Positions 5,635 through 24,398 of a DNA stretch of 64,000 nucleotides are shown in pieces. The stretch is taken from positions 212,919 through 276,918 of the forward strand of contig JBLYPW010000001.1 in assembly GCA_048538275.1 (NCBI GenBank). The letters run 5' to 3'. The notes under the pieces are model-generated. The model saw only the letters and a list, made by a program, of their open reading frames with translations. It searched no databases and was not told the origin of the DNA. The position numbers were made by a program, and so were the translations under genes. How positions within the stretch are numbered: position 1 is the first letter of the stretch; the number at the start of each line of letters is the position of its first letter. Source of the stretch: Candidatus Komeilibacteria bacterium (GTDB lineage Bacteria; Patescibacteriota; Patescibacteriia; UBA1558).

Positions 5635-8600
5635 TGCGCAAAGCATCGCATAAAAAAATATTTTTTGTTTTCTTGGCTTTGTTATTAATACCAATTATTA
5701 GTTTTGCGCAAGCTAATTTAGGTTTAGATACGGCTGGCAGCATTGGTTTGGGTACAACTGATTTACCGGTAATTATCGTTAATATTATAAGAATATTTTT
5801 GAGTTTATTGGGCTTGATTGCTGTTGGTGTTATTATTTGGGCTGGTTTGCAGTGGATGACAGCCGGTGGCAACCCAGAGCAGGTCGGACGGGCAAAAAAG
5901 TGGATGATTAATGGTTTGATCGGTCTGGTCATAATCATGGCCTCTTTTGGGATTGCTAGTTTTGTTATTAATAATTTAAAACAAGCTACTGGCTTGAGCG
6001 AAGCTACAGGTGATAATAATAGTTCGGGTGGTGGCGGTTTGCCTGGTGGTGGTTTTGTTTTGAGTAGTTGGCAACCAAGTAACAATAGTAGTGATTGGCC
6101 ACGTAATATTATAGTACGAGCTTATTTTAGCGGTGTCATTGATGCCACCACGCTTGATGAGAATGATATCACTTTTATTGACACCACTAGTAATAATAAT
6201 ATTCCTTTTGTTTTAGAGGCCAATGGTAGTCGTTTAGATATAGCGCCACAAAATAGTTGTGCTGTTGATGGCGTTGATTATTGTTTGCCAGCAGATCATG
6301 CTTATCAGGTAAGTATTGTAAATGGATCAATACGTTCTTTAGCTAACCATACTTTACAATGCGGACAAAATTGTCAGACGGTTTTTTCCGTTGGCAATAG
6401 TATTGATAATACTGCTCCCAATTTTGCGCTAGTGCAACCGGTGGCTGATAGTTTAGTAGCGCTTGATTCATTGGTACCGATTTTAGGTCAGCCAAATGAT
6501 AATAGTAGTGTTATTGCAGCGGTGACTTTTTTGGCTAATGATGATGTTGTTCAACCAGTTGGTAGCGATACGGATGGTGAGCCGTGGACAGTTGACTGGG
6601 TAGTGTCTGGCTATAATGCTGGTGAGATATTAAGTTTAAGTGCTACAGCGGAAGATTTGAGTGGCAATGTGGGTTATGCCCCTGATGTGCGGGTTATTGT
6701 GAGGCCGGAGCATTGTTTCAACGGCTATCAAGACGCTGATGAAACCGGTATTGATGTGGGAGGTAGTTGTGGCGCTGCTTTGGGAGAGTCATGCAATGTT
6801 AATAATAGTTGTGGCAATGGTGATCAATTTTGCGCGGAAGGGAGTTGTAGTGAAGTAACCTGTACTTGTGAAGCCAAGCCCATTGTCATGAGCATTACAC
6901 CCGCTGATGGTGCGGTAGGAAATTTAATTACTATTTATGGTAGTGGTTTTGGTCAAGATTTGGGTGTAGTGACTTTTTTGGGTAGTGCAGCTAGTGGCGA
7001 TGAACAGCTTGGTGATTTAAATGTTTGTTTACAAAGCTGGACCAATAATCAGGTTATAGTAGCAGTGCCAAATAATGCGGTTAGTGGGGGGATTAAATTA
7101 ACTACGGCCAGCGGACGTTTTGATACCACTTTGGATGAATTAGGATGGCAAGGAGAATTTGATGTAAATACCGTGGTGCGACCGGGTTTGTGTTCAGTTG
7201 ATCCAACGATTGGACCGGCCTTGTCACTGGCTAGTGTACAAGGTATTAATTTAGGTTCAAGTGCTGACAATCAAAACTTATTTGTAGGTGGTCAGTCGGC
7301 CAATATTGGTACTTGGCAAAATTCAGCAATTGATTTTATAGTTCCAAATCTACTGCCCAGTAGTCAGCCAGTGAGTATTTCTATACAAAATGACCAGCAA
7401 GAAAATAGTAATCCGGTGTATTTTGTGGTGCAGCCAGACATAGTGACACCACATTTATATAGTATTAATCCGGCTGGAGGGCCAGCGGGTCAGTATATTA
7501 CCTTGACGGGTACAAATTTTGGTACAAATCCGAGCGAAGTAAATGTCAAATTTGTGGCCGCTGATAATACTGCCACGGAAGCAGATATAGATTTTCCGGC
7601 AATGTGTGGAGAGCGACAAATTAGTAATACGGAAATGGTGGTAAAGGTGCCAGCGATCGCAGTGGGCGACTATGCCGTGGACGTTCGCCGTTTGGGTAAG
7701 GTGAGTGAGTCCATTGATTTTTCAGTTGTCAGTGGTCAGCCAGGGGCAGGATTGTGTGCTTTATTGCCAGATAATGGACCCAATGGCATTAGCGTGCAGG
7801 TAGTAGGTGATAATTTTTCTAATGATGGAAGTGTCAATTTTTATAATAATCAAACAGCCCAGACTAGCAATTGGCAAGCTAATAGCGTTGACACCGTTGT
7901 ACCGGCTGATGCAGTGAGTGGGCCGGTGAGCATGATGCTGGCAGGACAGGTTAGTAATAGCATAAATTTCTCGGTGGGCACTTGTAGTCCCGGACCGGGC
8001 GAGGAATTGTGTGCTGATGGCAGCTGTCGTCCGGTAGGAGAATGTTTAAATATACCGGCAGATGATGACTATACTTGGTCTTTTACCACGGGCGAGGCGT
8101 GGCCACCCTTCGTTGTTAGTGATTATTGGCCGGCTTGTAATAGTGCTTGTACAAATGCTGATGTAGCAGCGGTTTTTTCCAATCCATTGGATACAAATAC
8201 AATTATGAACAATGTTGAGATTTGGGATTGTGGTGAGGATGACATGTGTCTATCATCTGAGCAAATTGATTTGACCAATGGCAATGTTTGGGGCGGTAAT
8301 TATGATGCGAGTAACAATGTATTGCATTTTTTACCTTTGGGCATTAGCGCTAATCACAATTATCGCGTAGTTATGACCATGGGTAATGATGGTATAAAAA
8401 ATGCCGTAGGTGAAAATTTAACTAATCCTAATTTTGATAAAAATGGTGACGGAATAGATGATAGCTTTGCTTGGATTTTTAGTACTGGCGAGCAAGCATG
8501 TGTTCCAGCGCGCGCTGAGGTTTTGCCATCTCCTATTAAGTTTACTCGTTTAGAACAAAGTGAAACTGTCTACCCTTATCCTTATTCGGCGGCTGACAGT

Positions 8601-11600
8601 TGTAGCGCAACAGGACAACCTTTGTTGGCCAGTGATTATAGTTGGGCATGGAGTCTAAGCTCAGCGCTGCCAATAACTTTAGCAGTGGGAAGTAATTATG
8701 CCATTGTTCGCCCTCGGGCTGATGGCCAATCAAGGGTATTGGCAAGGATAAATGATTATGGTGTTATTGGTAGAAGCTTTGTTACCGTGGATATGGACAT
8801 TCCTGTTATTACCGCTATTAGTCCGGATAATGGTACGACAAATACTAATGTAAAAACTTTGGTTACCATTAGCGGTTATAATTTTGGCGAACATCAGGGT
8901 AGTAGTTATGTGGAAGTGGGCGGTACACGGGCGCAGTTGGCTGATTGTGGTATACCTTGGAGTGATACGCAAATTATTATAGAATTACCAGCCACTACGC
9001 AGAGTGGTGATCATATTAAAGTCATAAAAACTACTGGTGAGGATATTTCAGACCAGGCCTTTACGGTGAATAATATTATTAGACCGGCATTGTGTGGTAT
9101 TTCTCCCAATTATGGCACGGACGGTGATAGCGTGACTTTATCAGGCTATAATTTTGGCGATACCCAAGTTGATAGTATGGTAATGTTTGATCAGCTGGGA
9201 GTGGATACAATCAATAGTTGGTCTAATCAGTCCATTCGTACTATCGTACCGCCAGGTGCTAGTACGGGTCCGGTTTATGTTAATGTTCTTGGTAATAATT
9301 CTAATGCCATTAATTTTTCTTTGGAGCCATTTATAACCAAGCTTGATCCGAACAATGGCCCGGTCAATAGTTATGTTACTATTTATGGTGGAAATTTTGG
9401 TGATACTAGAGGTAATGGTCGGGTGATGATTGGTGGTCAATTAGCGAACTTAGCCCCTTGTGTTGATAATTGGAACAATACCACTATTATCGTTCAGGTA
9501 CCGGAAGGTCTTGATCTGGGCAAGTGGCCGGTACAAATATTTACAGCTAATAATATTCCCACCAATACGGTAGATTTTACAGTCAATGAAAATCCTTTGA
9601 ATCCACTATTGTGCCAGCTGGATCCAAATTGGGCGAGTAATAATGAAAGTATAAAATTGAAAGGTGATAATTTTGGTGACGCTCCCTATTTTGCCGGAGC
9701 AGAAAATGTAGACATGGCAGTGGGCGCTGATTATAGTAATATTATGGACCGTTCATGTATTTATAATAATGGTACTTATATTGGTTCTTGCAGTAATCTA
9801 TGGGTGGACTATCAGTTTAATTTTAATGCGGATGGTTATTATAATGCTTGGGCGGAGACCAGTAATAATGGTATAGATCTTACCGATCAAGGAATCTATC
9901 ATAATGTAGTTGTTTATCTTGACGGTCAATATATAGGTCAGTTCAGCAATGTAGCATCAAACCCAGATCACAATTTAGGTAGTGTGGGTTTGGGTTGGGT
10001 GAGCGCCGGTAATCATACGGTGAGATATTATTGGAATAATGATTGGTGTGGTGGTTGTGGTGATGGCATAGGCGATTCTAATATTCTATTTCATAAGGTT
10101 GGTATAGATGAGGGCGCTCCGATGAGCTATGCTTTATTTACTGATAATTATGCTGCTGAGACAAATAGCTGGCAAAACACAGAAATGAGCGCCAATATCA
10201 ATGAGTCGGTATTATCAGGTCCAGTTAGTTTGGTTAAAGAGGTGGTGACTGGTCGACAGTGCGCTGGTTTTCATATTGGCGGTTGGTGTCCGGGTGGAGT
10301 TTATGATGATATTACTACTACGACACAAAGTAATAGCTTGTCCTTTATCAAGGGCTGTGTGATTGGTACTACTTCTTCGCGAGTAGAAGGTTATATTCCC
10401 ACGGTGGCGGAAAATAGTGAGGCGGTGGGAACTTTAGCTACAGATGGTAGATTTTTATATGGTAAGAGTTGGGGTGGCTATGATAGGCACGATCGGTTGA
10501 TAACAAGAATTGGCAGTGGTTATCAGTATACTGTTCTTGGCAAAGTTTATAGTCATTTAGCTTATGTTGCGGACAGCTTAACTATGACTTATTATCCGGA
10601 TGGATATATATATAATGGTTATTCTACCAATGGGCATAATTTGCAACGGATCAATGCGGGAACTGGTTCCACTGATATGAGTTTAAATATTCCTGATGGT
10701 TTGCTGAATCGTAATACGGGGGAGGTTTATTCAGGAGTAAGAAGTGATTATTTAATTACTTCTGATGGTACATATATTTATAATTTAGCTTTTAGTACTC
10801 ATGCCTGCCCCCAAAATTATGGCAACCGTTGTTATGATGGATTCAAAGTTAGGGTTTTTGATCCAATGGATGATATGAGCTTGGTAAGAGAATGGACATC
10901 TGGTACAGATTCATTTTATACCGACGGTATTATCGCGGATGGTAAATATGTTTATGCCTTTGAATGGAGTGGCCAGCACAGAGTACGAAAAATGGATGCC
11001 ATCACCGGAGAGTTTGTGGCAGAATGGATATCCGAACAAGGCGGTCCAACTGGTGAGGGTAATGATATTATTTCCGGTCAATATGATTGGGTCAATGATA
11101 CAGTATGGATGGGTGATTTAGTTGATCATAGTCGCAATCCTGGCCCGGCTTATATTTATCAATATAATAGTTGTCATTTTGAAGACGGTGTGCTATTTCC
11201 AAGGTGCGGTGATGGTATATTGCAACAGAATGGCGAACCGGGTGATAGTTATGATTATACTTCTGCTCACAGTGGCAATATCAATTCTTATTATGAGCAA
11301 TGTGACGATGGTAATCTTATTAACGGGGATGGTTGTAGCTCGTGGTGTGCTCTTGAATCAGTGCCAGTCAGTAGTAATTTTATTATTACTGATCATGAGC
11401 CTGCAGTGGACGCTCCTGCCAATACCACCATCCGTTTGTTTTTCAGTGATAATGTTGCGACCGGTTCATTGGCCGATCGTGATATTACGATTACAGCCGG
11501 CGAAAATAATTTAAGTTGGAATGCATCAGTGAATAATAATGTCATTACTCTATTACCAACCCAAGTTTGTGGCGCCCCACATACAGACTTACGATGCTGG

Positions 11601-14600
11601 CCTACTAATCAGCGATTACAAGTCGTGGTAGCTGAGGGTAGTATTAAAAATATTCATAATCAGGGACTTAGTTGTAATAATGGTAAATGCGAATTTCATA
11701 TACAGACAACTGATCAAGTGGATGTGATAGCGCCACAAATCAGCTTGTTGACACCTACACAGGGTCAACAAGTACCGGTGGGCAGTTCAATAGCAGTGCA
11801 GGCTCAGGCTACCGATGATACTGACGTGGCTTATGTTGATTTTGCTATTGATGGTCAGTCGGTTGGTATTGTTAACCAAACGGGTATTTTTTCTGGTGAT
11901 CAATCTTATACTGTTTTGAATTATTTCCAGACTTTGCGGAGTGTTGATATTAACAATGACGGTTATGAAGATTTGCTAGCTTTTTCCAATAATGAGAGAG
12001 GATTTTCCGTGTTATTGAATAATGGTTGGGGAGGTTATATAGCTAAAGATTATAATGTGGGGGCTTATTATTATTCTTATGATTCAGGTTTTGGCATATG
12101 GGATGTAAATAATGATGGTTATTTAGACGTATTGCTTGGTAATAATAATTATGCCGGAAAGTTTTATATATTTTTGAATAATGGTGACGGTACTTTTGCC
12201 TCTCGTCAGACCTATGATTCGGCCGGACATTATCCGCGCGCCATAGCGACTGGCGATCTCAACGGCGATGGTTATAATGACATTGCAGTAGCGAATGATA
12301 GGGGGGATGGTAATAATATAGAATTAGTGATATTTGCCGGCGACGCTCAAGGTCATTGGTACTTGGTCAAGCAATTGAATATTGCTGATGATTATTCTGT
12401 TACCGGTTTAGCTATCAGCGATTATGATAATGACGGTAAAGATGATATCGCTGTATTGCAACGTTATCATAGTAGTAATAATTTACATATTTATTGGGGG
12501 CAAGAAAATTTAGCGAGCGATTGGCAAAAACTAGCTATGAATTCAGGTGGTTATTCTTATCAATTAGTTAGTAGTGATATAGATAATAACGGCAATGAAG
12601 ATTTGTTAATCTTGATGTACCATAGTGGGGATGATTATAGCTATTATATACAAGTGTTATATAATCAAGACAATAGAATATTTAGTCAGAGTAGTTTGCC
12701 TCAGAGTGACGGACATCACTACTATGTTACCAACTCTTTATTGATAAAAGACACAGATAATGATGATTATTCTGAGATATTTGCTAGAGAGGGTAATGTA
12801 ATAGTGCGTTGGGATAATAATGGCGGCGCAATTAGCGCACCAGCGGTATTGTCTAATGTACCTAGCTCAATATATACATTAACTGATACAAATAATGATA
12901 ATAGATTTGATATTATAAGCCGCAATAGTAACACGGATGCCATAGTGCTACTAAATAATGGTGACGGTACTTATGGTAGTAATAATATAGTTAGTTTTCC
13001 TTATGCTATGAAAAGTGTAGTGGCTAATGATTTGGATGGTGATGGCCTACCGGAGTTGATTATGCCGTATGTCAATAGTATTAGTAGGGGAGTAACAATT
13101 TATAGAACAGGCGCGGCTGGTTATCAAGAACAATCTAATTTTGATATCTTTTATGATCTGACGGCAAGAGCTACTGGTCGTTTATATGGCGCCTTACCTG
13201 ATAATAGTGGAAGTTATTATGGCTGGTGGGGCGGAGATTGGCATGCTGGCACGGGCGTTGGTAGCGGTCCGGTTTATGCCCAAGTGAGTGGTCAAAGTAC
13301 AGATTCAACCATAGTCAGTGGTAATTTAACACCCTCTCCTTATGATGGCGTCTATGCTGATTTTGATGTTGACTTGGGAGGTGGATTTAGCGTGCGTAGC
13401 ACTGGTTGGGTTTATGGTTATCCTAGTTTGTATCCTTATAGCGCAGCAGTTGGTAATTTTAATGGAGATGCTTATCAAGATATTATATTGCGTGATCGGA
13501 GTGGCTCTGGTAGCCATTATGATGCTCGTGTTTTAGCTGGTGGCTCAAATGGATGGCAAGAACAAGCGAATTATAATAACACTACTGGCGCATCTGGCTA
13601 TGATTGGCGTACGGCTACCAGAGGCATTTATCAACAGACCCAGGTAGTTGATATGAACAGTGATAATTCTGATGATTTTCTATTATTCAATGCAACAGGA
13701 GCGTTTAGTAGTTTTATTAATGATGGCACGGGTAAATTTACCGCAATCAATTATGAAGATTCTGATACTAATGATGCTTATCGTTTTGTGATGGGTGATT
13801 TAACTGGGGATAATATGCCTGATTTAGCTTATATTCAATACGAGTGGCAATCCAATAGTACAAACTTGTATATTGTAGAAAATAAAAATGGAAATTTAGA
13901 CTTTGCCCAACGCAGAGTTTTGACGTCACCTGATTATATAAATGGTTTGAGCATTGCCGATTTTAATAATGACGGCACAAATGATGTTATGGTGGTTTCG
14001 CAGTCAGCCGGTACGCTGTTTTATGACCGTAGTAGCGGCCAATGGCGGTCATATACTGCCGATATCAATGCTCCTAAATTGGCCAAAGCAGGCTTAGTGG
14101 ATAATGATGGTCTATTGGATATAGTAGTAGTAACAGATGGCGGCGGCGTACAAGTTTATTATAATCAAGGTGATTTTACCTTCACTAGCGGTGAATCTTT
14201 TACTTTGTTTAGTTATTACTATGGACCGGCTATCAATGATGACGCTTTGGCCATTGACGATTTTAATAATGATGGCCAGCAGGATATAGTTTTGAGCAGG
14301 TCATATGGCAGCGACTTGGCTTTTGTTTATCAAAAAGCCAACCCTGATTTATATAGTTATGCTTGGGATACTACCGGACTGATAGTAGGATCGCAACACA
14401 CAGTGCAGGCTACGGCTTATGATCTTGATAGCCATAGTACTAGTAGTCAATTAGTAACCGTAACTATTGGCTTGCAGGGAGATCATTGTACTGACGGTCT
14501 TATCAATTTTGACGAAAATGGTTTAGATTGCGGTGGCGCCGATTGTAGCGCCTGCCAGAATAATATTAGTGAGATTATTGTTAGTCCGCAAGAAGCTAAT

Positions 14601-17096
14601 GTAAATGTTGGTGAACAGATATTATTTAATGCCCAAGTCATAGATAATGATGGCAATCTTTTGTCAGATGCGATGGTTGATTGGACCAGCAATAGTTCTG
14701 ACAGTATTGGTATTAGTAGCGCGCTAGATGGTGGAATTTTAGTTAGTGGACAAATAGAAGGAGAGGCTATTATTACGGCCAGTTTAGGTGATATTAGCGA
14801 CGATGCCTTGGTTCACGTTGTTGTCCCTGTTAGTCCATGTGGTGATGGCATTGTTGATAGTAATATTGGTGAGCAATGCGATTTTGCGGCTGATGGTACG
14901 GTAATTATACCGGATAATTTAGCTTGTACCAGTTTTCCTGATTATGCTGCCGGTAGTTTGGGTTGTACGAGTCAATGCGAGTTGGACTTCAATCAGTGCG
15001 TGCCTGGCATACCCACATCAGGAGCTTGTGTAAATACAGAAATATCCGCTACGTTTGACAGTCCTATGCTTGCCTCTTCATTTACGCTTGATAAAGTACA
15101 TCTTTATAAACTATTAAGTAATGATGATTGGCAAGAAATACCTATCACTTTTAGTTTGGAAGACCGGCCAATTAGTGGCGAGCCAGAACAAACAATATTA
15201 TATATTCATCCCCTTGATGATCTAGATCCTTTTACCGTTTATAGAGCGGTAGTGTCTGGGGGTAGCGGTGGAGTTATGGATATGGGAGGAAGTATTTTAC
15301 CAAATGATTATGCGTGGCAATTTGATACTGGTGAAACTTTTTGCTTTATTGATCGCGTTGCTATTGAGCCAGATAGTTATGAATTTAATTCAGTGGATGA
15401 ACAAATTAACTTTATAGTGCATGCTTATGACAACGAAAATAATGTCATCAACGGTAATTATAATTGGCAGCTAGAAGGCAATAGCGAGTTAGTGAATATT
15501 GGCAATAATAATGGGCAAATTATTACTGTACAGCCAACTGGTATCGGCAATGGCGCTTTGAGTTTACGTGCCTTGGTTGATAGTGGAGCTCAGGGAAATG
15601 GTGAGGCAGTGGCGCCAATTGATATTTTTATGTGCGGTGCTCCTTGGCAATATAGTAATGACAGCTATAATTTTGCTGTTAAATATTGTCGTGGTGATGG
15701 GCCTAATATGATCTATAATAGTGGTTTTGAGCAAGATAATAACAATGATATTTATCCGGATGGTTGGGAAATGCCTATTGGCAATGCCCTGGTTAGTGAT
15801 TATACTGCTAGATTGGATGAGGACGGTAGCGGCAAGGTCTTTACTATCATTCAAAACAATACTGCTACGATTAGTCATGATCGCGTTTTGGTGCGTCAGT
15901 ATGTGCCGGTCAAGCCACAAACTACTTATAGCATCAATTTTAAAATTAAAGCCGAAAATATAAATAATAGACCGGTGGAAATATATGAGCTGGCGGATAG
16001 AAACGGTGCCAGGCTGGGTGATCAGCCACTTTCTTCTGGTAGCATTGGTAGCTATGATTGGGAGACTAATAGCTTAATAATTCTTACTAATGCCGATACC
16101 AATTATTTGGAAGTGGGCTTGGTATTGTATATGAGTCGTGATAATAATTTATCACAGATTTGGTTTGATGATATGCAATTGGAGCTTGGTAATCAAGCCA
16201 GTAGCTATCAGGCTAGTAATTTATTGCCGGATTTGGTAGTCAGTGAAGTAGGAAGTGGTTTTGATGATCCAAATTTACTAACGACTATATTATTGAGTCA
16301 ACAAGTTTATGGCAGTGATGACGCTATTGGCATGCGGGTCTATAGTAATTTTGATCATCTTGACCCTCTGAGCTGGTATCAAAACAATATAGTGACCCAA
16401 GGACAGCCCCAGTCCATTATAGTCGGAGGTTATAGCGCTTTGCAGGAAGGGCGCAGCACTTATGTTAATGCCGCAAATATAGCTGGCGCTGATGTATATA
16501 CCAATATTTATCTTTTATCTTATACTCAGGGAGCTGGTAATGATACGCAAAATATGTTCACGCAAATTTATAATAATTGGTCTTTTAATACTAATTTAAG
16601 TTCCGTGGCTTTGCGGCAAAGATTAGTGAACGATACTTTACGCTGGGAAGGTTTAAATATATTGGATAACTCACTGCGGGAGTATTATGATAAATATGGC
16701 TTTTATCCTAAATTATTGTCTGGCACTTATCAAGTAGGTAATAGTGTATCGGTTTGGGATTCTTGGCAATCAACATTAGCCACTGCTTTGGGTATAGTCG
16801 CACCGATTGACCCCATCAATAGTCATAGTATTTGTCCTGCCGGGTACGACTCTGTGACTTGTTGGAATCCTGAGCAGCAAGATTATGTTTGCCCGTTAGG
16901 TTCTCATATTTATCAGTATCATGCTTTATCTTCTGGACAACATTTTGAATTGAATAGCAATTTTGAGTATGGCGGGGTTATCTGGCGGGGGAGTTTTCAG
17001 TTGCCAGTTGACATGAGCGAGGAGTGCGACAATATCATTTGGAGTGATCAGGATATTGACAGTAATGAGGCACAAGATGGCATACGAGGCATATAA
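5634..17096 (+). CDS. giant (3820 aa) surface adhesin-like protein whose N-terminal module is a paralog of the 3688-5634 product
   Basis: The architecture, in order: signal peptide; pilin-like module (..WMTAGGNPEQVGRAKKWMINGLIGLVIIM..); Gly linker; Ig-like domains; EGF-like Cys clusters; about 8 IPT/TIG-like units (P..x.I.P..G..G..(I/V)T(I/L)xGxNFG); a propeller-like region; Cys-rich CGDGI..EQCDDGNLINGDGCSSWC repeats; about 15 FG-GAP/VCBS-like DxNxDGxxD repeats; two Big_2-like domains; a CBM-like C-terminal domain. It is a single uninterrupted ORF. Confidence 0.85.
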   Translation: MRKASHKKIFFVFLALLLIPIISFAQANLGLDTAGSIGLGTTDLPVIIVNIIRIFLSLLGLIAVGVIIWAGLQWMTAGGNPEQVGRAKKWMINGLIGLVIIMASFGIASFVINNLKQATGLSEATGDNNSSGGGGLPGGGFVLSSWQPSNNSSDWPRNIIVRAYFSGVIDATTLDENDITFIDTTSNNNIPFVLEANGSRLDIAPQNSCAVDGVDYCLPADHAYQVSIVNGSIRSLANHTLQCGQNCQTVFSVGNSIDNTAPNFALVQPVADSLVALDSLVPILGQPNDNSSVIAAVTFLANDDVVQPVGSDTDGEPWTVDWVVSGYNAGEILSLSATAEDLSGNVGYAPDVRVIVRPEHCFNGYQDADETGIDVGGSCGAALGESCNVNNSCGNGDQFCAEGSCSEVTCTCEAKPIVMSITPADGAVGNLITIYGSGFGQDLGVVTFLGSAASGDEQLGDLNVCLQSWTNNQVIVAVPNNAVSGGIKLTTASGRFDTTLDELGWQGEFDVNTVVRPGLCSVDPTIGPALSLASVQGINLGSSADNQNLFVGGQSANIGTWQNSAIDFIVPNLLPSSQPVSISIQNDQQENSNPVYFVVQPDIVTPHLYSINPAGGPAGQYITLTGTNFGTNPSEVNVKFVAADNTATEADIDFPAMCGERQISNTEMVVKVPAIAVGDYAVDVRRLGKVSESIDFSVVSGQPGAGLCALLPDNGPNGISVQVVGDNFSNDGSVNFYNNQTAQTSNWQANSVDTVVPADAVSGPVSMMLAGQVSNSINFSVGTCSPGPGEELCADGSCRPVGECLNIPADDDYTWSFTTGEAWPPFVVSDYWPACNSACTNADVAAVFSNPLDTNTIMNNVEIWDCGEDDMCLSSEQIDLTNGNVWGGNYDASNNVLHFLPLGISANHNYRVVMTMGNDGIKNAVGENLTNPNFDKNGDGIDDSFAWIFSTGEQACVPARAEVLPSPIKFTRLEQSETVYPYPYSAADSCSATGQPLLASDYSWAWSLSSALPITLAVGSNYAIVRPRADGQSRVLARINDYGVIGRSFVTVDMDIPVITAISPDNGTTNTNVKTLVTISGYNFGEHQGSSYVEVGGTRAQLADCGIPWSDTQIIIELPATTQSGDHIKVIKTTGEDISDQAFTVNNIIRPALCGISPNYGTDGDSVTLSGYNFGDTQVDSMVMFDQLGVDTINSWSNQSIRTIVPPGASTGPVYVNVLGNNSNAINFSLEPFITKLDPNNGPVNSYVTIYGGNFGDTRGNGRVMIGGQLANLAPCVDNWNNTTIIVQVPEGLDLGKWPVQIFTANNIPTNTVDFTVNENPLNPLLCQLDPNWASNNESIKLKGDNFGDAPYFAGAENVDMAVGADYSNIMDRSCIYNNGTYIGSCSNLWVDYQFNFNADGYYNAWAETSNNGIDLTDQGIYHNVVVYLDGQYIGQFSNVASNPDHNLGSVGLGWVSAGNHTVRYYWNNDWCGGCGDGIGDSNILFHKVGIDEGAPMSYALFTDNYAAETNSWQNTEMSANINESVLSGPVSLVKEVVTGRQCAGFHIGGWCPGGVYDDITTTTQSNSLSFIKGCVIGTTSSRVEGYIPTVAENSEAVGTLATDGRFLYGKSWGGYDRHDRLITRIGSGYQYTVLGKVYSHLAYVADSLTMTYYPDGYIYNGYSTNGHNLQRINAGTGSTDMSLNIPDGLLNRNTGEVYSGVRSDYLITSDGTYIYNLAFSTHACPQNYGNRCYDGFKVRVFDPMDDMSLVREWTSGTDSFYTDGIIADGKYVYAFEWSGQHRVRKMDAITGEFVAEWISEQGGPTGEGNDIISGQYDWVNDTVWMGDLVDHSRNPGPAYIYQYNSCHFEDGVLFPRCGDGILQQNGEPGDSYDYTSAHSGNINSYYEQCDDGNLINGDGCSSWCALESVPVSSNFIITDHEPAVDAPANTTIRLFFSDNVATGSLADRDITITAGENNLSWNASVNNNVITLLPTQVCGAPHTDLRCWPTNQRLQVVVAEGSIKNIHNQGLSCNNGKCEFHIQTTDQVDVIAPQISLLTPTQGQQVPVGSSIAVQAQATDDTDVAYVDFAIDGQSVGIVNQTGIFSGDQSYTVLNYFQTLRSVDINNDGYEDLLAFSNNERGFSVLLNNGWGGYIAKDYNVGAYYYSYDSGFGIWDVNNDGYLDVLLGNNNYAGKFYIFLNNGDGTFASRQTYDSAGHYPRAIATGDLNGDGYNDIAVANDRGDGNNIELVIFAGDAQGHWYLVKQLNIADDYSVTGLAISDYDNDGKDDIAVLQRYHSSNNLHIYWGQENLASDWQKLAMNSGGYSYQLVSSDIDNNGNEDLLILMYHSGDDYSYYIQVLYNQDNRIFSQSSLPQSDGHHYYVTNSLLIKDTDNDDYSEIFAREGNVIVRWDNNGGAISAPAVLSNVPSSIYTLTDTNNDNRFDIISRNSNTDAIVLLNNGDGTYGSNNIVSFPYAMKSVVANDLDGDGLPELIMPYVNSISRGVTIYRTGAAGYQEQSNFDIFYDLTARATGRLYGALPDNSGSYYGWWGGDWHAGTGVGSGPVYAQVSGQSTDSTIVSGNLTPSPYDGVYADFDVDLGGGFSVRSTGWVYGYPSLYPYSAAVGNFNGDAYQDIILRDRSGSGSHYDARVLAGGSNGWQEQANYNNTTGASGYDWRTATRGIYQQTQVVDMNSDNSDDFLLFNATGAFSSFINDGTGKFTAINYEDSDTNDAYRFVMGDLTGDNMPDLAYIQYEWQSNSTNLYIVENKNGNLDFAQRRVLTSPDYINGLSIADFNNDGTNDVMVVSQSAGTLFYDRSSGQWRSYTADINAPKLAKAGLVDNDGLLDIVVVTDGGGVQVYYNQGDFTFTSGESFTLFSYYYGPAINDDALAIDDFNNDGQQDIVLSRSYGSDLAFVYQKANPDLYSYAWDTTGLIVGSQHTVQATAYDLDSHSTSSQLVTVTIGLQGDHCTDGLINFDENGLDCGGADCSACQNNISEIIVSPQEANVNVGEQILFNAQVIDNDGNLLSDAMVDWTSNSSDSIGISSALDGGILVSGQIEGEAIITASLGDISDDALVHVVVPVSPCGDGIVDSNIGEQCDFAADGTVIIPDNLACTSFPDYAAGSLGCTSQCELDFNQCVPGIPTSGACVNTEISATFDSPMLASSFTLDKVHLYKLLSNDDWQEIPITFSLEDRPISGEPEQTILYIHPLDDLDPFTVYRAVVSGGSGGVMDMGGSILPNDYAWQFDTGETFCFIDRVAIEPDSYEFNSVDEQINFIVHAYDNENNVINGNYNWQLEGNSELVNIGNNNGQIITVQPTGIGNGALSLRALVDSGAQGNGEAVAPIDIFMCGAPWQYSNDSYNFAVKYCRGDGPNMIYNSGFEQDNNNDIYPDGWEMPIGNALVSDYTARLDEDGSGKVFTIIQNNTATISHDRVLVRQYVPVKPQTTYSINFKIKAENINNRPVEIYELADRNGARLGDQPLSSGSIGSYDWETNSLIILTNADTNYLEVGLVLYMSRDNNLSQIWFDDMQLELGNQASSYQASNLLPDLVVSEVGSGFDDPNLLTTILLSQQVYGSDDAIGMRVYSNFDHLDPLSWYQNNIVTQGQPQSIIVGGYSALQEGRSTYVNAANIAGADVYTNIYLLSYTQGAGNDTQNMFTQIYNNWSFNTNLSSVALRQRLVNDTLRWEGLNILDNSLREYYDKYGFYPKLLSGTYQVGNSVSVWDSWQSTLATALGIVAPIDPINSHSICPAGYDSVTCWNPEQQDYVCPLGSHIYQYHALSSGQHFELNSNFEYGGVIWRGSFQLPVDMSEECDNIIWSDQDIDSNEAQDGIRGI

Positions 17097-17168: not shown

Positions 17169-19700
17169 ATGAATATTTTTTCTAATAAATTGTTTTTAAC
17201 ATCATTGGGCTTGCTTGTATTTATGCCTTTGATTGCTAATGCCGCTATTAGTAATAGTTGTCAGGAAGAATTATTACTTACCAATAATACTGACATCTCT
17301 TTATCTAATATTGAATATTCCGGGATGACACCGGCAAGTGGTTTTTATTTTTTGGACAAAGTCGGTGATTGGACAAAGCTTCATTTATTTTCTGTGACCA
17401 CCGATGCTAAGTTAAATACATTATTAGATCAGGCGGAGGAGAAAATAGGTGAGCTGGAGTTATTACAAAAGCAAAATAATTTAAAATCTCGCTATTTGGA
17501 TATATTAACCACCGCATATACTGACATCATGAGCCAAGTAGATAGTAAATTGGCAGAATTGCAAAATAAAAATGTTGATATGACGGCGGTGATGACACGC
17601 ATCACCCAGCTAAATATGCGTAATAAGGCAATTTTGAGCCGGGTTTTATCCGCTAGTACCAGTGAACAACAAAGTAAATTAAATTTGGCTTATCAGCAGA
17701 CAGCTGACAGTTTTTGTACATCAATAAATACTTGGCAAGAGAGAACCAGCCAATGCCATGATGACATTGTTGTCCAGCAAACTTTAAATTCTTCTTTTAA
17801 TAATATTTCTAACACTATCAGCCAAGCCGAGCAGGCGGTGAAAAATTTACAACCCACTATTGATATTATAAAAGATAGGACGCAAATATTAGATAAATTT
17901 ATTCAGTCAGTTGACGCCGGTTTTCTTGATTTGCAGCTTTTGTTGCAAGAAAAAAGTGATGATCGGGAGGCGCGCTTGCAAAAATTTATGCAATATGTTT
18001 CTGATTGGCTAAATAGTGAGCAGTATCAGCTATTGCATAAAGACATAGAACGCATGAATAATTTTGCTTTTTTAGTGGGTGGGTCGCAACAACAACAGAC
18101 CTTAATGCAAAATTGGCGAGAGCATGACATTAGTTTAACGAGGTTATTGTCAAGGCTAGATAGTTTGCGCAATATATCTATCAATGATGAGGCGGCTGTT
18201 ATCGGTAATAGCTTGTACGCTTTACAATTAAAAGCTTATGATGACGAATTATTAGCCTTAGCTGCTTATATTGCTGAGGATAAAATAGCAGTAGAAGAGC
18301 TAAATGCGGAGGTGCAATTTTGTGCTAAACAATTTTCTAGCATGAACGACGCTCGGGCGTATTTAGAAAAAGATAATCCCAGCAGAGCTTTATCTATTTT
18401 TGTAGAAATTAATAAATCTTTATTAAATAATAATAATAAAATATTAGTTGGTTGTGGCATGAGTGATATAGTGGGTAATGCGCAAAATATTTTACAAAAT
18501 AGTCAGATCTTAGCTGGCGCTGATAAATGTGGCAAGGATATGTATAATATGTATAAAGATGAATTAATTTCTTTGTTTAAGTATGATTTAGAACAAGCGA
18601 ATTTAGTCAATAGTTATGCCAGTAAGGTACAAATTTTACAGCAGCAATCTTTAGAGCAATTAGTCAAGCAAAAATCTATGATTGAAGAGGCTAAGAAAGC
18701 TTTAGCTCAGCCTAAGTTAGAGAACGACGAGGCTTTGTGGGCTTTTTTGGCAGAGCATCTCAAAGATATTAATAATAATTTATTAGATATCAGTAAGAGG
18801 TATCATAATTTATTTGATCAGTTGACTCAATTGTCAAATGATTGGCAATTGTGGCTGAAAAATTTCTATTCTATCAGAGACGTTTTGCCTGCCTTGCGAG
18901 AACAAATAGATCATAAACAAGTAGCTGTTGTACAACAAACATTGGATTTGAATATTTATCCTATTGTAGAAAAGCAGCTTAGTGGGGCAAGAATAACGCC
19001 TCTTACTGGGCAATTATCCTTGAATACAGCTCATCTGGCTTGGGCCAATAAGCACTGGCAGACAGAAGAAAGCAAGGCTTATGAGGATATTGTTTCAGCG
19101 ATTAAGCAGGCTGCTATAGCAATAGGTAAAAATACTTGCGCGCAAGGCATGGCCATCTACAATAGTTCTGTGCCGGGCATTTGTAGTAGTTTAGCCCAAT
19201 TAGATTGGATTAATAGTTGTCAGGTAATAAATAATATAGAGAAGCAAGTTACTCTGGCTTGTACTCCTGATGCTCAACTTTTATGTGGTAATGGTGTGGT
19301 GGATGATGGTGAGCAGTGTGATGATGGCAATGCTATTTCCGGAGATGGCTGTAATAAAGTATGCCAAAAGGAGCAGATTTTATATTGTGGTGATGGGATA
19401 ATCAGTCACCCCAATAGTTCTGGCATTGATGAACAATGTGAAAATCAGCCGGCTAATAAATTATCCGGAGATGGCTGTAGCACTAATTGTCAGAATGAAG
19501 CAGCACCAGTTTGTGGTGATGGTATTTTACAACGAATGATAGATCAAGCAACGACTAGTACTTTTGCCAGCGCTACCTCTGCATATTATGAGCAGTGTGA
19601 TGATGGTAATTTATTACCCGGTGATGGGTGTAACAATTTGTGCCAAATAGAAGCGGGTAGTGCGCAACGTAGTATTAATATATTACAAACTAAACCATAA
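17169..19700 (+). CDS. secreted coiled-coil protein with three C-terminal Cys-rich 'CGDG...EQCDDGN..GDGC..C' repeats
   Basis: Signal peptide, a long Q/L-rich helical region, and C-terminal repeats paralogous to those in the giant protein. Confidence 0.7.
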   Translation: MNIFSNKLFLTSLGLLVFMPLIANAAISNSCQEELLLTNNTDISLSNIEYSGMTPASGFYFLDKVGDWTKLHLFSVTTDAKLNTLLDQAEEKIGELELLQKQNNLKSRYLDILTTAYTDIMSQVDSKLAELQNKNVDMTAVMTRITQLNMRNKAILSRVLSASTSEQQSKLNLAYQQTADSFCTSINTWQERTSQCHDDIVVQQTLNSSFNNISNTISQAEQAVKNLQPTIDIIKDRTQILDKFIQSVDAGFLDLQLLLQEKSDDREARLQKFMQYVSDWLNSEQYQLLHKDIERMNNFAFLVGGSQQQQTLMQNWREHDISLTRLLSRLDSLRNISINDEAAVIGNSLYALQLKAYDDELLALAAYIAEDKIAVEELNAEVQFCAKQFSSMNDARAYLEKDNPSRALSIFVEINKSLLNNNNKILVGCGMSDIVGNAQNILQNSQILAGADKCGKDMYNMYKDELISLFKYDLEQANLVNSYASKVQILQQQSLEQLVKQKSMIEEAKKALAQPKLENDEALWAFLAEHLKDINNNLLDISKRYHNLFDQLTQLSNDWQLWLKNFYSIRDVLPALREQIDHKQVAVVQQTLDLNIYPIVEKQLSGARITPLTGQLSLNTAHLAWANKHWQTEESKAYEDIVSAIKQAAIAIGKNTCAQGMAIYNSSVPGICSSLAQLDWINSCQVINNIEKQVTLACTPDAQLLCGNGVVDDGEQCDDGNAISGDGCNKVCQKEQILYCGDGIISHPNSSGIDEQCENQPANKLSGDGCSTNCQNEAAPVCGDGILQRMIDQATTSTFASATSAYYEQCDDGNLLPGDGCNNLCQIEAGSAQRSINILQTKP

Positions 19701-19722
19701 TAAATATATAAATCATAAATTT

Positions 19723-20517
19723 ATGTTTGAAGATTTTGATGATAAAATAAAAGATAATAAACCGCCTACTTCACCGGAGATTCCTAGGCAACCAGATAGT
19801 ATCCCCGTGGCAAATAATCAATCAGCGGAAAAAGAGCCGGAAGATATTTTTGCCAATGTTGAAAAGGATCAAATGTCTAAACCAACGCAGCCACCCAGGC
19901 CAGCGCAAGCGCCAGGCCAGCCAAAAGATATTGGGCCAGCTAAGCCTTTACAAGCCATGCCAGCGGCGGATGGCGCCAGCCAGACTGGTCATAAACGTTG
20001 GTTATGGGCAGTCATAGGATTGGTGGTGATTGTGGCGATCGGTATTTGGTGGTGGAGCGCTTATAGCACGCCTGATAATTATAGTGATTTGGTCAATAAC
20101 CCCCTTGATAACCAGATGAATAACCAGATGAATAACCAGATTAATAATGCCCCTACAGATTTGGTGAATAATCAGCCGGTTGATATACCGACTGATAACC
20201 AGTTGGATAATAATTCTGGAGAGATTATAAATCAGCCAATAGATAATGTTGATCAGCCCAGCGCTAATCCAGATATCAATATTGATACAGATGGTGATGG
20301 TTTGACAGATAAGCAAGAGGCCACCATTGGTACCGATCCTAGTCAAGCAGATAGTGATGCGGATGGTTTGTTTGATAAGGAAGAGGTGGTAACTTATAAT
20401 ACCGATCCTTTGAACCCGGATACAGATGGTGATGGTTATGCGGATGGCTTGGAAGTGCAAAGTGGCTATAATCCAGCCGGTGAGGGTAAGTTATTAAATA
20501 TTCCTACCGATCAATAA
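19723..20517 (+). CDS. single-pass membrane protein with a Pro-rich N-terminus, N/Q tandem repeats and thrombospondin-type-3-like Ca-binding repeats
   Basis: TM segment WLWAVIGLVVIVAIGIWWW; NNQMNNQMNNQINN; DTDGDGLTDKQE..TDPSQADSDADGLFDKEE..TDPLNPDTDGDGYADGLE. Start chosen at the internal ATG at 19723; the ORF-track start at 19660 overlaps the previous gene. Confidence 0.65.
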   Translation: MFEDFDDKIKDNKPPTSPEIPRQPDSIPVANNQSAEKEPEDIFANVEKDQMSKPTQPPRPAQAPGQPKDIGPAKPLQAMPAADGASQTGHKRWLWAVIGLVVIVAIGIWWWSAYSTPDNYSDLVNNPLDNQMNNQMNNQINNAPTDLVNNQPVDIPTDNQLDNNSGEIINQPIDNVDQPSANPDINIDTDGDGLTDKQEATIGTDPSQADSDADGLFDKEEVVTYNTDPLNPDTDGDGYADGLEVQSGYNPAGEGKLLNIPTDQ

Positions 20518-20521
20518 TTTT

Positions 20522-22117
20522 ATGGCTCAATTAATAGATAATAAAGCAATTAATCAGGACGATTCTTCAGCCAGCGGCAATATTTATACTATGCCCGCTA
20601 AATTTACTAAGCCGACCAATTCTAAGAGTAGTCGCAAGATTTTTATTATAGCCGCTATTATAGTCGGTTTGGTGGTGATAGCCGGAGGGGCTTATTGGTT
20701 TATCAATGCTATGCAAGTGCCAACTGATAATATAGTAATAAACGATCAAAGGTTAAACAATAACATGCTATTAAATAATAGCGTTGCAGTTGATAATAAT
20801 ATTAATGAACAACAATCCCCGGTCAGTGATGACATTGAACAGGAAAGAGATGAGCAGCGCTTGCAAGATATTTTTTCTTTGCGCTCTGCCTTGGCGATAT
20901 ATTATGTCAGCGAGAAGGTATATCCAGATAAACTAGAAGATTTGATCCCAACTTATTTACAAGAATTACCCCAAGACCCGCTAGCTGATTCACAAAATTA
21001 CGTTTATATCGGTGCTGGGGATCAAACAAGTTATCAAATAAATTTTTCTTTAGAATCTGGTGGAAAGGTTGGTAATTTAAATTTACCTGCCGGTGATTAT
21101 GTCGCTCGAGCGGATATGATAGAGCCGTTGGTACCTGATGTATCAGAGGATGATAATGACAATGCTTCTGTGGATGATATGGAATTATTGGCCGGATTGG
21201 ATAGTGATAGAGATGCTTTGAGTGATATTGAGGAGAATATATATAAAACCGATGCGGCTTTGGTAGATACAGATGGCGATGGTTATTCTGATGCTAATGA
21301 ATTGGTCAAGCTTTTTGATCCTGCTTTGCCGGACGGTGCCTTATTGGTTGATTCTGCTAATGTATCAGAATATTTCAATAGCAATTACAATTATAGTATT
21401 TATTATCCTACCGTTTGGAACGAACGTGAGCTGACAGAGGATAAAGCAGAAGTTTTGTTTAGTTCAGCTACCACGGAAATGATTCAAGTAATAGTGCAGG
21501 ACAATCCCTTGGGTTTGTCGGCTCGTGATTGGTATATAAAGAATAATCCTGAGATTGACCCTAGTGGCTTACAGGATGTCGTTTTTGATAATATGGTTGG
21601 AGTACAAACAGAAGATGGTTTGCACACTTATTTAGCTTTGGGTAGCGATATTTATGTTTTAGTTTATAATTTAGGCACTACCAATCAGCTCAATTATTTA
21701 GCTACTTATCAAATGATGTTGGCCAGCTTCAAATTAGTAGAGCCAGCCTCTAATGATCCAGCGGTATTGCGTGATCAACAACGTCAGCAAGATGTTTCTA
21801 ATTGGCGCTTGGCTTTGCTTAGTTATCAAGTAGATAACTTATCCTTGCCTGATAGTATAGATGCTGATGTTGATACTTTTCAAATATTAGGTAATGGGTC
21901 AGATTGTGCGATGACTTGTTCTGCTGTGACCACTGCTACGGCTTGTGTAGATATGAGTGGTATTTTAGTGCCTAGTTATTTAGAGTCATTGCCTCAGGAC
22001 CCCAGCACCGGATCAATGGCTAATACTGGATATTATGTAAATTTATTGACAGACGGCACGGTGATTGTTGGTGCTTGCCAGCCTGAGACAATGGATATTA
22101 TTGAGGTGAGTAATTAG
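20522..22117 (+). CDS. membrane-anchored secreted protein with two GspG-like (type II secretion pseudopilin-fold) domains and a TSP3-like Ca-binding repeat
   Basis: N-terminal TM segment with no prepilin leader. Domain 1: ERDEQRLQDIFSLRSALAIYY..YPDKLEDLIPTYLQELPQDPLADSQNYVYIG..YQINFSLESG. Domain 2: RDQQRQQDVSNWRLALLSY..LVPSYLESLPQDPSTGSMANTGYYVNLLTDGTVIVGA. Between them: DTDGDGYSDANE. Confidence 0.7.
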   Translation: MAQLIDNKAINQDDSSASGNIYTMPAKFTKPTNSKSSRKIFIIAAIIVGLVVIAGGAYWFINAMQVPTDNIVINDQRLNNNMLLNNSVAVDNNINEQQSPVSDDIEQERDEQRLQDIFSLRSALAIYYVSEKVYPDKLEDLIPTYLQELPQDPLADSQNYVYIGAGDQTSYQINFSLESGGKVGNLNLPAGDYVARADMIEPLVPDVSEDDNDNASVDDMELLAGLDSDRDALSDIEENIYKTDAALVDTDGDGYSDANELVKLFDPALPDGALLVDSANVSEYFNSNYNYSIYYPTVWNERELTEDKAEVLFSSATTEMIQVIVQDNPLGLSARDWYIKNNPEIDPSGLQDVVFDNMVGVQTEDGLHTYLALGSDIYVLVYNLGTTNQLNYLATYQMMLASFKLVEPASNDPAVLRDQQRQQDVSNWRLALLSYQVDNLSLPDSIDADVDTFQILGNGSDCAMTCSAVTTATACVDMSGILVPSYLESLPQDPSTGSMANTGYYVNLLTDGTVIVGACQPETMDIIEVSN

Positions 22118-24272: not shown

Positions 24273-24398
24273 AAGTTGTAGTCTATAAGTTTTGATTGCA
24301 ATTTGGTGTATAAATTTTATTAGATAAAAACTTGAACAATAATATTAATAAAATTATTTATAGTATATTGTAACACCATTAGTATTAAATTTTAGTAT

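What the first reader, a model, noticed from the sequence alone, without database searches (positions are those of the whole stretch)
20522..22117. A protein with two GspG-like pseudopilin globular domains but no prepilin (class III) leader
Both halves match the T2SS/T4P major-pseudopilin C-domain pattern R..R..D...L..AL..Y......YP..L..L.P.YL..LP.DP......Y.Y. The first half ends with YQINFSLESG. The N-terminus, however, is a normal N-in single TM segment, not a G|F(T)LxE prepilin peptidase site. A tandem-pseudopilin, non-processed protein is unusual. It might cap or nucleate a pilus-like fibre built from the neighbouring proteins.
Basis: partly seen in the sequence, partly recalled or inferred. 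Interest (0 to 1): 0.7.

Follow-up and report, generated by a model that had tools for sequence, protein, structure and literature searches.

The report
Membrane-anchored protein with leaderless pilin domains
A membrane-anchored surface protein of a Patescibacteria (Komeilibacteria) bacterium carries two copies of the globular head of a type IV pilin but lacks the part needed for processing and pilus assembly; such leaderless pilin heads turn out to be common, so the protein is real but not exceptional.

Summary
ORF 20522-22117 (+) encodes a 531-aa protein with two homologous pilin head-group domains: D1 (aa 103-202) and D2 (aa 410-531). There is no class III (prepilin) leader.

The predicted layout is:
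- a cytoplasmic tail with a conserved IYTMPxKF motif
- one N-in TM anchor
- a ~40-residue disordered stalk
- D1
- an acidic, TSP3-type Ca-binding linker
- a PsbP/Mog1-fold domain
- D2, which holds all four cysteines

D1 and D2 align to the α1-C helix plus sheet of genuine leader-bearing Patescibacteria prepilins. This is the part that remains when the polymerisation helix α1-N is removed.

The architecture is not rare. The D1 profile hits 6086 protein clusters. Of the 149 best, 143 lack a leader and 81 carry 2-6 copies. Some copies are fused to a Ser/Thr kinase, to multi-TM proteins or to lipoprotein signals.

The neighbours are not type IV pilins, and the 64-kb window holds no pilus machinery or prepilin. 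The one strictly conserved partner is the TM-TSP3 gene immediately upstream.

Most likely this is a non-polymerising, membrane-anchored surface scaffold, not a pilus cap or nucleator. Its function is untested.

The parts
20522..22117 (+). Whole ORF, 531 aa plus stop. A bitopic envelope protein of a Komeilibacteria bacterium.
   Evidence: ORF list and translation. 100% identical to NCBI MAG protein ACKKL5_01130, with 15 further homologues at 37-51% identity to the window protein.
20582..20605 (+). Conserved cytoplasmic motif IYTMPAKF (aa 21-28).
   Evidence: M24 and P25 are invariant and Y22 and T23 nearly invariant in A1. An I(Y/H)(T/V)MP motif is kept in distant relatives that lack pilin domains.
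20636..20710 (+). Single TM anchor (aa 39-63), N-in.
   Evidence: Hydrophobic helix 39-63 in the AF2 model. Basic KSSRK lies on the N-side. No G|FTLxE site.
20711..20827 (+). N/Q-rich disordered stalk (aa 64-102) separating the TM from D1.
   Evidence: pLDDT below 50 for aa 64-101. Length and sequence vary, with indels, in A1.
20828..21127 (+). Pilin head-group domain D1 (aa 103-202).
   Evidence: Pfam T2SSG E 0.006, sub-threshold. The full-length family profile hits GspG/EpsG structures over this region, E 0.002. hhalign against leader-bearing prepilins: prob 99.6%, E 2e-23. The AF2 model shows a long helix 103-131 followed by β-strands.
21128..21331 (+). Acidic linker with two TSP3/EF-hand-like Ca-binding motifs (DSDRDALSDIEE at aa 227, DTDGDGYSDANE at aa 249).
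   Evidence: Pfam TSP3_bac is sub-threshold here, and 15 of 16 family members match it. Profile hits to lanmodulin and an EF-hand protein, E 0.006. Motif positions.
21353..21727 (+). PsbP/Mog1-fold α/β domain (aa ~278-402), the conserved core of the wider family.
   Evidence: Foldseek against PDB: BT_1490, CyanoP, PsbP and Mog1p, E 1e-5 to 5e-3. Pfam PsbP is sub-threshold. The domain is present in all relatives, with or without pilin domains.
21749..22114 (+). Pilin head-group domain D2 (aa 410-531) with four Cys (462, 466, 475, 519).
19723..20517 (+). Upstream partner gene: cytoplasmic tail, TM, then three TSP3 repeats (264 aa from the ATG). Its stop lies 4 nt before this ORF.
   Evidence: Pfam TSP3_bac 1.4e-19. 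Shares the TSP3 region with the target. A homologue lies immediately upstream of the family gene in all 9 further loci with upstream sequence and in the Komeilibacteria loci L001-L004.
17169..19700 (+). Secreted 843-aa protein: DUF5667, coiled coil, and Cys-rich DUF4215/myxo repeats. A cluster member in Komeilibacteria.
   Evidence: Pfam and NCBIfam. Syntenic in L001-L004 and L007.
5634..17096 (+). Giant 3820-aa surface protein with an N-terminal T4SS_pilin (VirB2-like) domain plus TIG, FG-GAP and Ig-like domains.
   Evidence: Pfam. Equivalent giant proteins lie upstream in L001, L003, L005, L008 and L018.
3688..5634 (+). 648-aa protein with an N-terminal T4SS_pilin domain plus Big_5 Ig-like domains.
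   Evidence: Pfam.

Best explanation
The gene encodes a non-polymerising, membrane-anchored extracytoplasmic scaffold or adaptor protein of a Patescibacteria cell envelope.

**Shown:**
- The domain order is: short cytoplasmic tail with a conserved IYTMPxKF motif, N-in TM anchor, disordered stalk, pilin head-group D1, TSP3-type linker, PsbP/Mog1-fold domain, pilin head-group D2.
- D1 and D2 are homologous to the α1-C helix plus β-sheet of genuine Patescibacteria type IV pilins. They lack the leader and the α1-N helix.
- The family core (motif, TM, TSP3, PsbP-like domain) exists without pilin domains. D1, and then D2, were added in sub-lineages.
- The gene is always paired with an upstream TM-TSP3 paralogue.
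- It usually sits behind large surface-protein genes.

**Inferred:**
- Without a leader and α1-N, the protein cannot be cleaved by PilD or inserted into a pilus core. It stays tethered by its own TM helix.
- The pilin heads serve as soluble protein-binding or spacer modules. This is how the same domain seems to be used in the many other leaderless proteins, including kinase, multi-TM and lipoprotein fusions.
- The TSP3 motifs bind Ca2+.
- D2 is stabilised by two disulfides, C462-C475 and C466-C519.
- Together with its TM-TSP3 partner, the protein organises or tethers surface structures such as the neighbouring giant adhesins.
For: - **Domain identities:**
- **D1 and D2 begin at the α1-N/α1-C boundary:** D1 aligns to prepilin aa 40-153 and D2 to aa 42-126 of a 154-aa prepilin whose mature F1 is residue 14.
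- **No leader, and TM uncoupled from D1:** ~40 disordered, indel-rich residues lie between them.
- **Leaderless copies are the rule among the closest relatives:** 143 of 149 lack a leader. Proteins carry 1-6 copies, mostly behind a TM or a lipobox. Fusions include Pkinase, GPDPase_memb and multi-TM proteins.
- **Graded architectures, with and without D1 and D2:**
- **Invariant pairing with the TM-TSP3 gene:**
- **Large surface proteins upstream in most lineages:**
- **Paired loss of C466 and C519:**. A DsbB homologue lies in the window.
- **No pilus or secretion machinery or prepilin in 64 kb:**
Against: - No experiment or interaction prediction exists for any family member, so 'scaffold' is an inference from architecture and synteny.
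- Linkage to giant adhesins is not universal. L014 has an amidase gene (Pfam Amidase family) upstream. Synteny with ybeY, dgkA, ftsA and ftsZ is equally conserved, so part of the gene order may be phylogenetic inertia.
- Only 64 kb of the genome was visible. Pilus genes elsewhere could still be functionally linked.
Confidence: 0.55

Rival explanations
1. Pilus-associated docking factor. The leaderless pilin heads bind genuine type IV pilins or the pilus shaft or base through head-to-head contacts. The membrane-anchored protein would then tether, regulate or chaperone T4P or pilin pools without being a filament subunit.
For: D1 and D2 are closest to genuine Patescibacteria prepilins. T4P are widespread and important in this phylum (abstract of PMC11623550). 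In one distant relative's locus a prepilin peptidase gene lies ~7 kb downstream (L008).
Against: No pilin or pilus-machinery gene lies in the window or next to the family gene in any of the loci examined. The family functions without pilin domains in many lineages. The same domain is fused to a kinase and to multi-TM proteins, which argues for a general module and not a pilus-specific one.
Confidence: 0.15
2. First reader's idea. The protein is a non-processed tandem pseudopilin that caps or nucleates a pilus-like fibre made of the neighbouring proteins.
For: Two pilin-fold domains are present. The neighbours carry a domain that Pfam calls 'T4SS_pilin', and the cluster is conserved.
Against: Every known way in which a pilin enters a type IV filament uses the leader-processed α1-N helix, and that helix is absent here. 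T4SS_pilin (VirB2-like) is a different family from type IV pilins. No assembly ATPase, platform protein or peptidase is in the window. The architecture is common in unrelated contexts.
Confidence: 0.05
3. Transmembrane sensor or divisome-linked bitopic protein. The extracellular domains bind a ligand or envelope component. The conserved cytoplasmic IYTMPxKF motif passes this on to a cytoplasmic partner, possibly the FtsA/FtsZ machinery encoded just downstream. This would make it a positional analogue of FtsQ/DivIB.
For: The cytoplasmic motif is the most widely conserved short element of the family. The same pilin-like domain forms the extracellular part of a Ser/Thr kinase (P0121). ftsA lies downstream of the gene in many loci, with no gene called between them in L014. 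No ftsQ-like gene lies between dgkA and ftsA here.
Against: The fold searches gave PsbP/Mog1 and pilin matches, not FtsQ/POTRA. ybeY and dgkA intervene in most loci, and in L015, L018 and L008 the downstream genes are secDF or clpP. A 38-aa tail has no recognisable signalling domain.
Confidence: 0.1

Closest known systems
GspG/EpsG/PulG, major pseudopilin of the type II secretion system (Pfam T2SSG, PF08334)
   Different: No class III leader. No α1-N helix contiguous with the domain. Two copies inside a 531-aa multi-domain protein with its own TM anchor. No gsp operon. The Pfam score is below the gathering threshold (17.0 against 21).
Type IV pilins of Patescibacteria (130-190 aa; PF07963 N_methyl leader followed by '...AR(D/E)KARDAKR..D..QI..ALELYY...')
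   Same: These are the closest sequence relatives of D1 and D2. The whole head-group aligns, down to the C-terminal '...SY.L.F.LE.G...AG.H.A.P.GI'.
   Different: The pilins have KGFTLIELL leaders and the hydrophobic α1-N. Here that segment is replaced by a stalk (D1) or by the preceding PsbP-like domain (D2).
Modular type IV pilins such as Streptococcus sanguinis PilB, Clostridioides difficile PilJ (dual pilin fold) and ETEC CofB
   Different: By established knowledge, those proteins keep the prepilin leader and α1-N and are incorporated into pili. This protein has neither.
N-terminally truncated soluble pilins used for crystallography (for example ΔN PilA or EpsG constructs)
   Same: D1 and D2 correspond to the same boundaries, starting near mature residue ~27. 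Such constructs are soluble, folded and non-polymerising (established knowledge).
   Different: Here the truncation is natural and embedded in a larger polypeptide.
PsbP/CyanoP/Mog1 superfamily α/β domains
   Same: The middle domain matches CyanoP 2xb3, PsbP and Mog1p by Foldseek, E 6e-5 to 5e-3. There is a weak Pfam PsbP hit.
   Different: No photosystem context. Sequence similarity is sub-threshold. Here the domain is extracytoplasmic in a non-photosynthetic bacterium.
Bacterial TSP3-repeat surface proteins (Pfam TSP3_bac; for example Myxococcus CglD and MtsD)
   Same: DxDxDGxxDxxE calcium-type motifs in an extracellular linker. Weak NCBIfam hits to CglD and MtsD over this stretch.
   Different: Only two motifs are present. 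There is no homology outside the repeats.

Membership tests
T2SS major pseudopilin GspG / type IV (pseudo)pilin proper | Class III signal peptide: short basic leader ending in Gly, then F/M-T-L-x-E, cleaved and N-methylated by the prepilin peptidase | tested here: not met
   No such motif in the protein, in its 15 homologues, or anywhere in the six-frame translation of the window. The genuine prepilins recovered as relatives do show it.
T2SS major pseudopilin GspG / type IV (pseudo)pilin proper | Hydrophobic α1-N helix continuous with α1-C (the polymerisation helix) | tested here: not met
   D1 and D2 align from prepilin residue ~40 onward only. The protein's TM helix is ~40 disordered, indel-rich residues away from D1, and D2 follows a globular domain.
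T2SS major pseudopilin GspG / type IV (pseudo)pilin proper | Globular head: α1-C packed on an antiparallel β-sheet (pilin fold) | tested here: met
T2SS major pseudopilin GspG / type IV (pseudo)pilin proper | Pfam T2SSG (PF08334) above the gathering score | tested here: not met
   17.0 bits against a cut-off of 21 for D1, and no hit for D2. Only 4 of 16 family members match, even at E<=1. More distant leaderless relatives do pass, for example P0031 at 61 bits.
T2SS major pseudopilin GspG / type IV (pseudo)pilin proper | Encoded with assembly machinery (GspD/E/F or PilB/C/D/M-Q) | tested here: not met
   None found among the tested ORFs of the 64-kb window or in the syntenic loci. The rest of the genome is not visible.
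T2SS major pseudopilin GspG / type IV (pseudo)pilin proper | Incorporation into a filament | not testable with these tools
   Needs pilus purification, proteomics or imaging.
Leaderless T2SSG-like (pilin head-group) domain proteins, an uncurated class seen here | One or more pilin head-group domains located behind a non-class-III signal, anchor or other domains | tested here: met
   This protein has two copies, at aa 103-202 and 410-531, behind a type II anchor. 143 of the 149 best representatives share this property.
Patescibacteria 'I(Y/H)TMP motif - TM - TSP3 - PsbP-like' family (uncharacterised) | Cytoplasmic motif, single TM, TSP3 motifs, C-terminal or central PsbP/Mog1-like domain, and a TM-TSP3 paralogue encoded immediately upstream | tested here: met
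   All elements are present. The partner gene is at 19723-20517, and the pairing is conserved in every locus with upstream sequence.
PsbP family (PF01789) | Pfam score above the gathering score | tested here: not met
   15.4 bits against 23.5. The similarity is at fold level only.
TSP3_bac repeat (PF18884) | Pfam score above the gathering score; DxDxDGxxDxxE motif | tested here: inconclusive
   16.3 bits against 25 for this protein. 15 of 16 homologues match weakly. Two motif copies are present. Ca binding was not tested.

The most novel reading that the evidence does not exclude
Leaderless pilin head-groups may be a large, undescribed class of extracytoplasmic binding or sensor modules. They would derive from type IV pilins by loss of the polymerisation helix. 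They are deployed on bitopic scaffolds, Ser/Thr kinases, multi-TM proteins and lipoproteins. In this protein pair they would couple the cell membrane, through a conserved cytoplasmic IYTMPxKF tail, to pili or giant adhesins that mediate host attachment in Patescibacteria.
Probability: 0.15. Interest if true: 0.65.

Novelty: new variant of a known kind. Interest (0 to 1): 0.4.

Why it matters
Type IV pilins are normally thought of only as filament subunits. This protein, and the thousands of relatives found with its domain profile, show the pilin head-group reused as a stand-alone extracellular module, without the helix that makes it a pilin.

For annotation, a 'GspG/T2SSG' hit in Patescibacteria and elsewhere must not be read as evidence of a pilus or a T2SS unless a leader is present.

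For biology, the protein belongs to a conserved gene pair that often sits next to giant surface adhesins in ultrasmall, host-dependent bacteria. Its binding partners could therefore bear on how these cells organise their attachment surface. None of this has been tested.

Tried and rejected
- **Foldseek of the full-length model against PDB.** The PsbP-like domain dominated, so it said nothing about the pilin domains.
- **afdb50 fold library.** Not available.
- **Word-indexed searches with D1 or mixed leaderless-domain profiles.** They returned almost only leader-bearing prepilins. They did not give the taxonomy of the leaderless relatives I wanted, which therefore stays largely unknown. P0031 looks Gram-negative-like and P0121 lies next to FHIPEP.
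- **The search for related loci with the D1 alignment.** Failed because no stretch was conserved enough.
- **Alternative start at Met24, which would make an ordinary signal peptide.** Rejected. Residues 1-23 are conserved at protein level with in-frame indels, and the motif spans the Met.
- **The TM helix as a degenerate class III signal.** Rejected. There is no Gly at -1 and no Glu at +5, there is a 38-aa N-tail, and a 40-aa spacer lies before D1.
- **FtsQ/DivIB homology.** No fold or profile support.
- **Literature searches for leaderless or pseudopilin-like domains and for T2SSG architectures.** No description of this architecture was found.
Full report
**Observation**

The ORF at 20522..22117 (+) is real and encodes 531 aa. 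It is identical to a hypothetical protein of a Candidatus Komeilibacteria MAG, in the Patescibacteria/CPR. It has 15 further homologues at 37-51% identity to the window protein, all from Komeilibacteria or unnamed Patescibacteria.

A regex for its core finds only these two sites in the six-frame translation of the window.

The two halves are homologous:
- hhalign of the family sub-alignments gives prob 97.5%, E 9e-12.
- The middle domain as control gives prob <=1.4%.
- A D1-only HMM detects D2 as a second domain in every two-domain member.

**Are they pilin domains?**

Evidence for D1 (aa 103-202):
- It hits Pfam T2SSG below threshold: 17.0 bits against 21, E 0.006.
- The full-length family profile hits four different GspG/EpsG structures through this region, E 0.002-0.006.
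- The exhaustive profile search and the word-indexed searches recover genuine leader-bearing Patescibacteria prepilins, of the form 'KKGFTLIELLVVIAIIGILS...AREKARDAKRxxDxxxIxxALxLYY'.

Profile-profile comparison with nine such prepilins:

| Query | Probability | E-value | Aligned prepilin residues |
|---|---|---|---|
| D1 | 99.6% | 2e-23 | 40-153 of 154 |
| D2 | 95% | 4e-8 | 42-126 |
| Middle domain (control) | 0.3% | not significant | none |

The D1 value is partly circular, because those prepilins were found with the D1 profile. The D2 value is not.

The alignments start at about mature-pilin residue 27. This is the boundary between the hydrophobic α1-N and the amphipathic α1-C.

Structural evidence for D2:
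- The D2-only AlphaFold model (pLDDT 68, pTM 0.63) has a 27-residue N-terminal helix followed by β-strands.
- Foldseek on the same model was negative.
- The D2 profile alone finds no PDB sequence.

I therefore regard D1 as firmly a pilin head-group, and D2 as very probably one.

**No leader**

Neither this protein nor any homologue has a G|F/M-T-L-x-E site. The single TM helix (aa 39-63) follows a 38-aa tail and a basic KSSRK, so it is N-in. About 40 residues of low confidence, variable in length and sequence, separate it from the D1 helix. D2 follows a globular domain.

**Full architecture**

| Residues | Element |
|---|---|
| 1-38 | Cytoplasmic tail with the conserved IYTMPAKF motif (aa 21-28) |
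| 39-63 | TM anchor |
| 64-102 | Disordered stalk |
| 103-202 | D1 |
| 203-270 | Acidic linker |
| ~278-402 | PsbP/Mog1-fold domain |
| 410-531 | D2 |

- The acidic linker holds two DxDxDGxxDxxE-type motifs at aa 227 and 249. Support is weak: sub-threshold TSP3_bac and weak lanmodulin/EF-hand matches.
- The PsbP/Mog1 assignment comes from Foldseek matches to BT_1490, CyanoP, PsbP and Mog1p, E 1e-5 to 5e-3.
- All four cysteines lie in D2. C462 and C475 are invariant. C466 and C519 are replaced together in two homologues. This points to two disulfides.
- A DsbB homologue is encoded at 36133-36696.

**How unusual is it?**

It is not unusual. The D1 profile, scored against 1.84 billion cluster representatives, hits 6086 at E<=1e-3 and 319 at E<=1e-10.

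Among the 149 best besides the query's own cluster:
- Only 6 have a prepilin motif.
- 81 have 2-6 copies of the domain.
- In 128 the first copy starts beyond residue 45.

Short members have an ordinary TM or a lipobox, then a low-complexity stalk, then the domain.

Fusion partners include:
- a Ser/Thr kinase with four extracellular copies (P0121)
- a GPDPase_memb membrane domain (P0033)
- multi-TM (about seven predicted segments) proteins (P0061, P0122, P0148)
- TSP3 repeats, present in 46 of the 149

Many of these pass Pfam's T2SSG gathering score; P0031 reaches 61 bits with six copies. UniRef already labels one homologue of the target 'Type II secretion system protein GspG C-terminal domain-containing protein'. 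I found no paper that discusses such leaderless pilin domains.

**Family history and context**

The wider family has a core of I(Y/H)(T/V)MP motif, TM, TSP3 and PsbP-like domain. The architectures are graded:

| Architecture | Size or members |
|---|---|
| Core only, no pilin domain | 343-384 aa |
| Core plus D1 | ~413-490 aa, at least 20 representative clusters |
| Core plus D1 and D2 | Komeilibacteria, plus two further representative clusters (P0032, P0039) |
| Pilin-like domain only in the D2 position | one case |

The pilin heads are therefore accretions, not the core.

Conserved context:
- In every locus with upstream sequence, a TM-TSP3 paralogue lies immediately upstream. Here it is 19723-20517, with its stop 4 nt before the target's ATG.
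- Further upstream, most lineages have very large surface proteins. Here these are a 3820-aa and a 648-aa protein with N-terminal VirB2-like T4SS_pilin domains plus TIG, FG-GAP and Ig domains, and an 843-aa DUF5667/Cys-rich protein.
- One lineage has only an amidase gene (Pfam Amidase family) upstream (L014).
- Downstream genes are housekeeping: ybeY, dgkA, ftsA, ftsZ, or secDF.
- The tested ORFs of the 64-kb window contain no PilB/C/D/M, no Gsp or VirB4 component and no prepilin. ComEC is present.

**Mechanism**

- Shown: domain identities, absence of a leader and α1-N, optional nature of the pilin heads, and the conserved gene pair.
- From established knowledge of type IV filaments: prepilin peptidase needs the class III site, and assembly uses α1-N.
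- Inferred: the protein cannot be a filament subunit, cap or nucleator in any known manner.

My best explanation (confidence ~0.55) is a non-polymerising, membrane-tethered extracytoplasmic scaffold. It would work with its TM-TSP3 partner, using pilin heads and the PsbP-like domain as binding modules. It may organise the neighbouring giant adhesins.

Rivals:
- a pilus-docking factor (0.15)
- a sensor or divisome-linked bitopic protein acting through the conserved cytoplasmic motif (0.10)

The rest is unknown.

**Verdict**

- Novelty: a new variant of a known kind. A known fold and domain appears in an uncharacterised, leaderless, tandem, membrane-anchored architecture that automated annotation already partly flags.
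- Interest: 0.4. The single protein is ordinary within its class. The size and diversity of the leaderless pilin-head class is the more interesting by-product.

Noticed in passing
window 3688-5634 and 5634-17096 (+): Two consecutive proteins (648 aa and 3820 aa) start with a VirB2-like T4SS_pilin domain (PF18895). They continue with Big_5, TIG, FG-GAP and Big_7 adhesin-type domains. The stop of the first overlaps the start of the second. No VirB4 or other T4SS gene was found among the tested ORFs of the window.
   Followed up: partly
window 19660-20517 (+): The ORF list starts this gene at a GTG (19660) that overlaps the upstream gene by 41 nt. The conserved N-terminus 'MFEDFDDK...' begins at the ATG at 19723, which is the more likely start. 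The product (TM plus three TSP3 repeats) is the invariant upstream partner of the target family.
   Followed up: partly
window 20582-20605 (aa 21-28 of the target): A cytoplasmic motif I(Y/H)(T/V)MPxxF lies just before the TM anchor. It is conserved across the whole wider family in several Patescibacteria lineages. Its partner and function are unknown.
   Followed up: partly
P0121 (L050 5001-7301), P0031 (L051 5001-7268), P0033, P0061, P0122, P0148: Leaderless pilin head-group domains occur as 4 extracellular copies on a Ser/Thr kinase, as 6 tandem copies in a protein from a probably Gram-negative contig with prophage genes, and at the C-termini of multi-TM membrane proteins.
   Followed up: partly
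P0110, P0126: Short pilin-like proteins in which the hydrophobic N-terminal helix directly precedes the RDxxR helix, as in a pilin, but without the Gly-Phe...Glu5 processing site. They may be degenerate or transitional pilins.
   Followed up: no
window 36133-36696 (+): A DsbB homologue in a reduced genome. It fits with disulfide-bonded surface proteins such as D2 of the target and the Cys-rich DUF4215 repeats at 17169-19700.
   Followed up: no
window 29866-31371 (+): A ComEC (Competence plus DUF4131) DNA-uptake channel gene, with no com or pil pilin genes nearby in the window.
   Followed up: no
window 1-64000: Almost all genes lie on the + strand, and GC skew is positive in every 2-kb bin, so cumulative skew rises monotonically. 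The only sizeable minus-strand genes tested are recR (59299-59898) and dnaB (60273-61658), where the skew drops to 0.04.
   Followed up: no
window 23028-25586 (+): ftsA and ftsZ follow dgkA directly, with no ftsQ/divIB-like gene upstream. The target family sits a few genes upstream of ftsA in many Patescibacteria loci, and in L014 no gene is called between them.
   Followed up: partly
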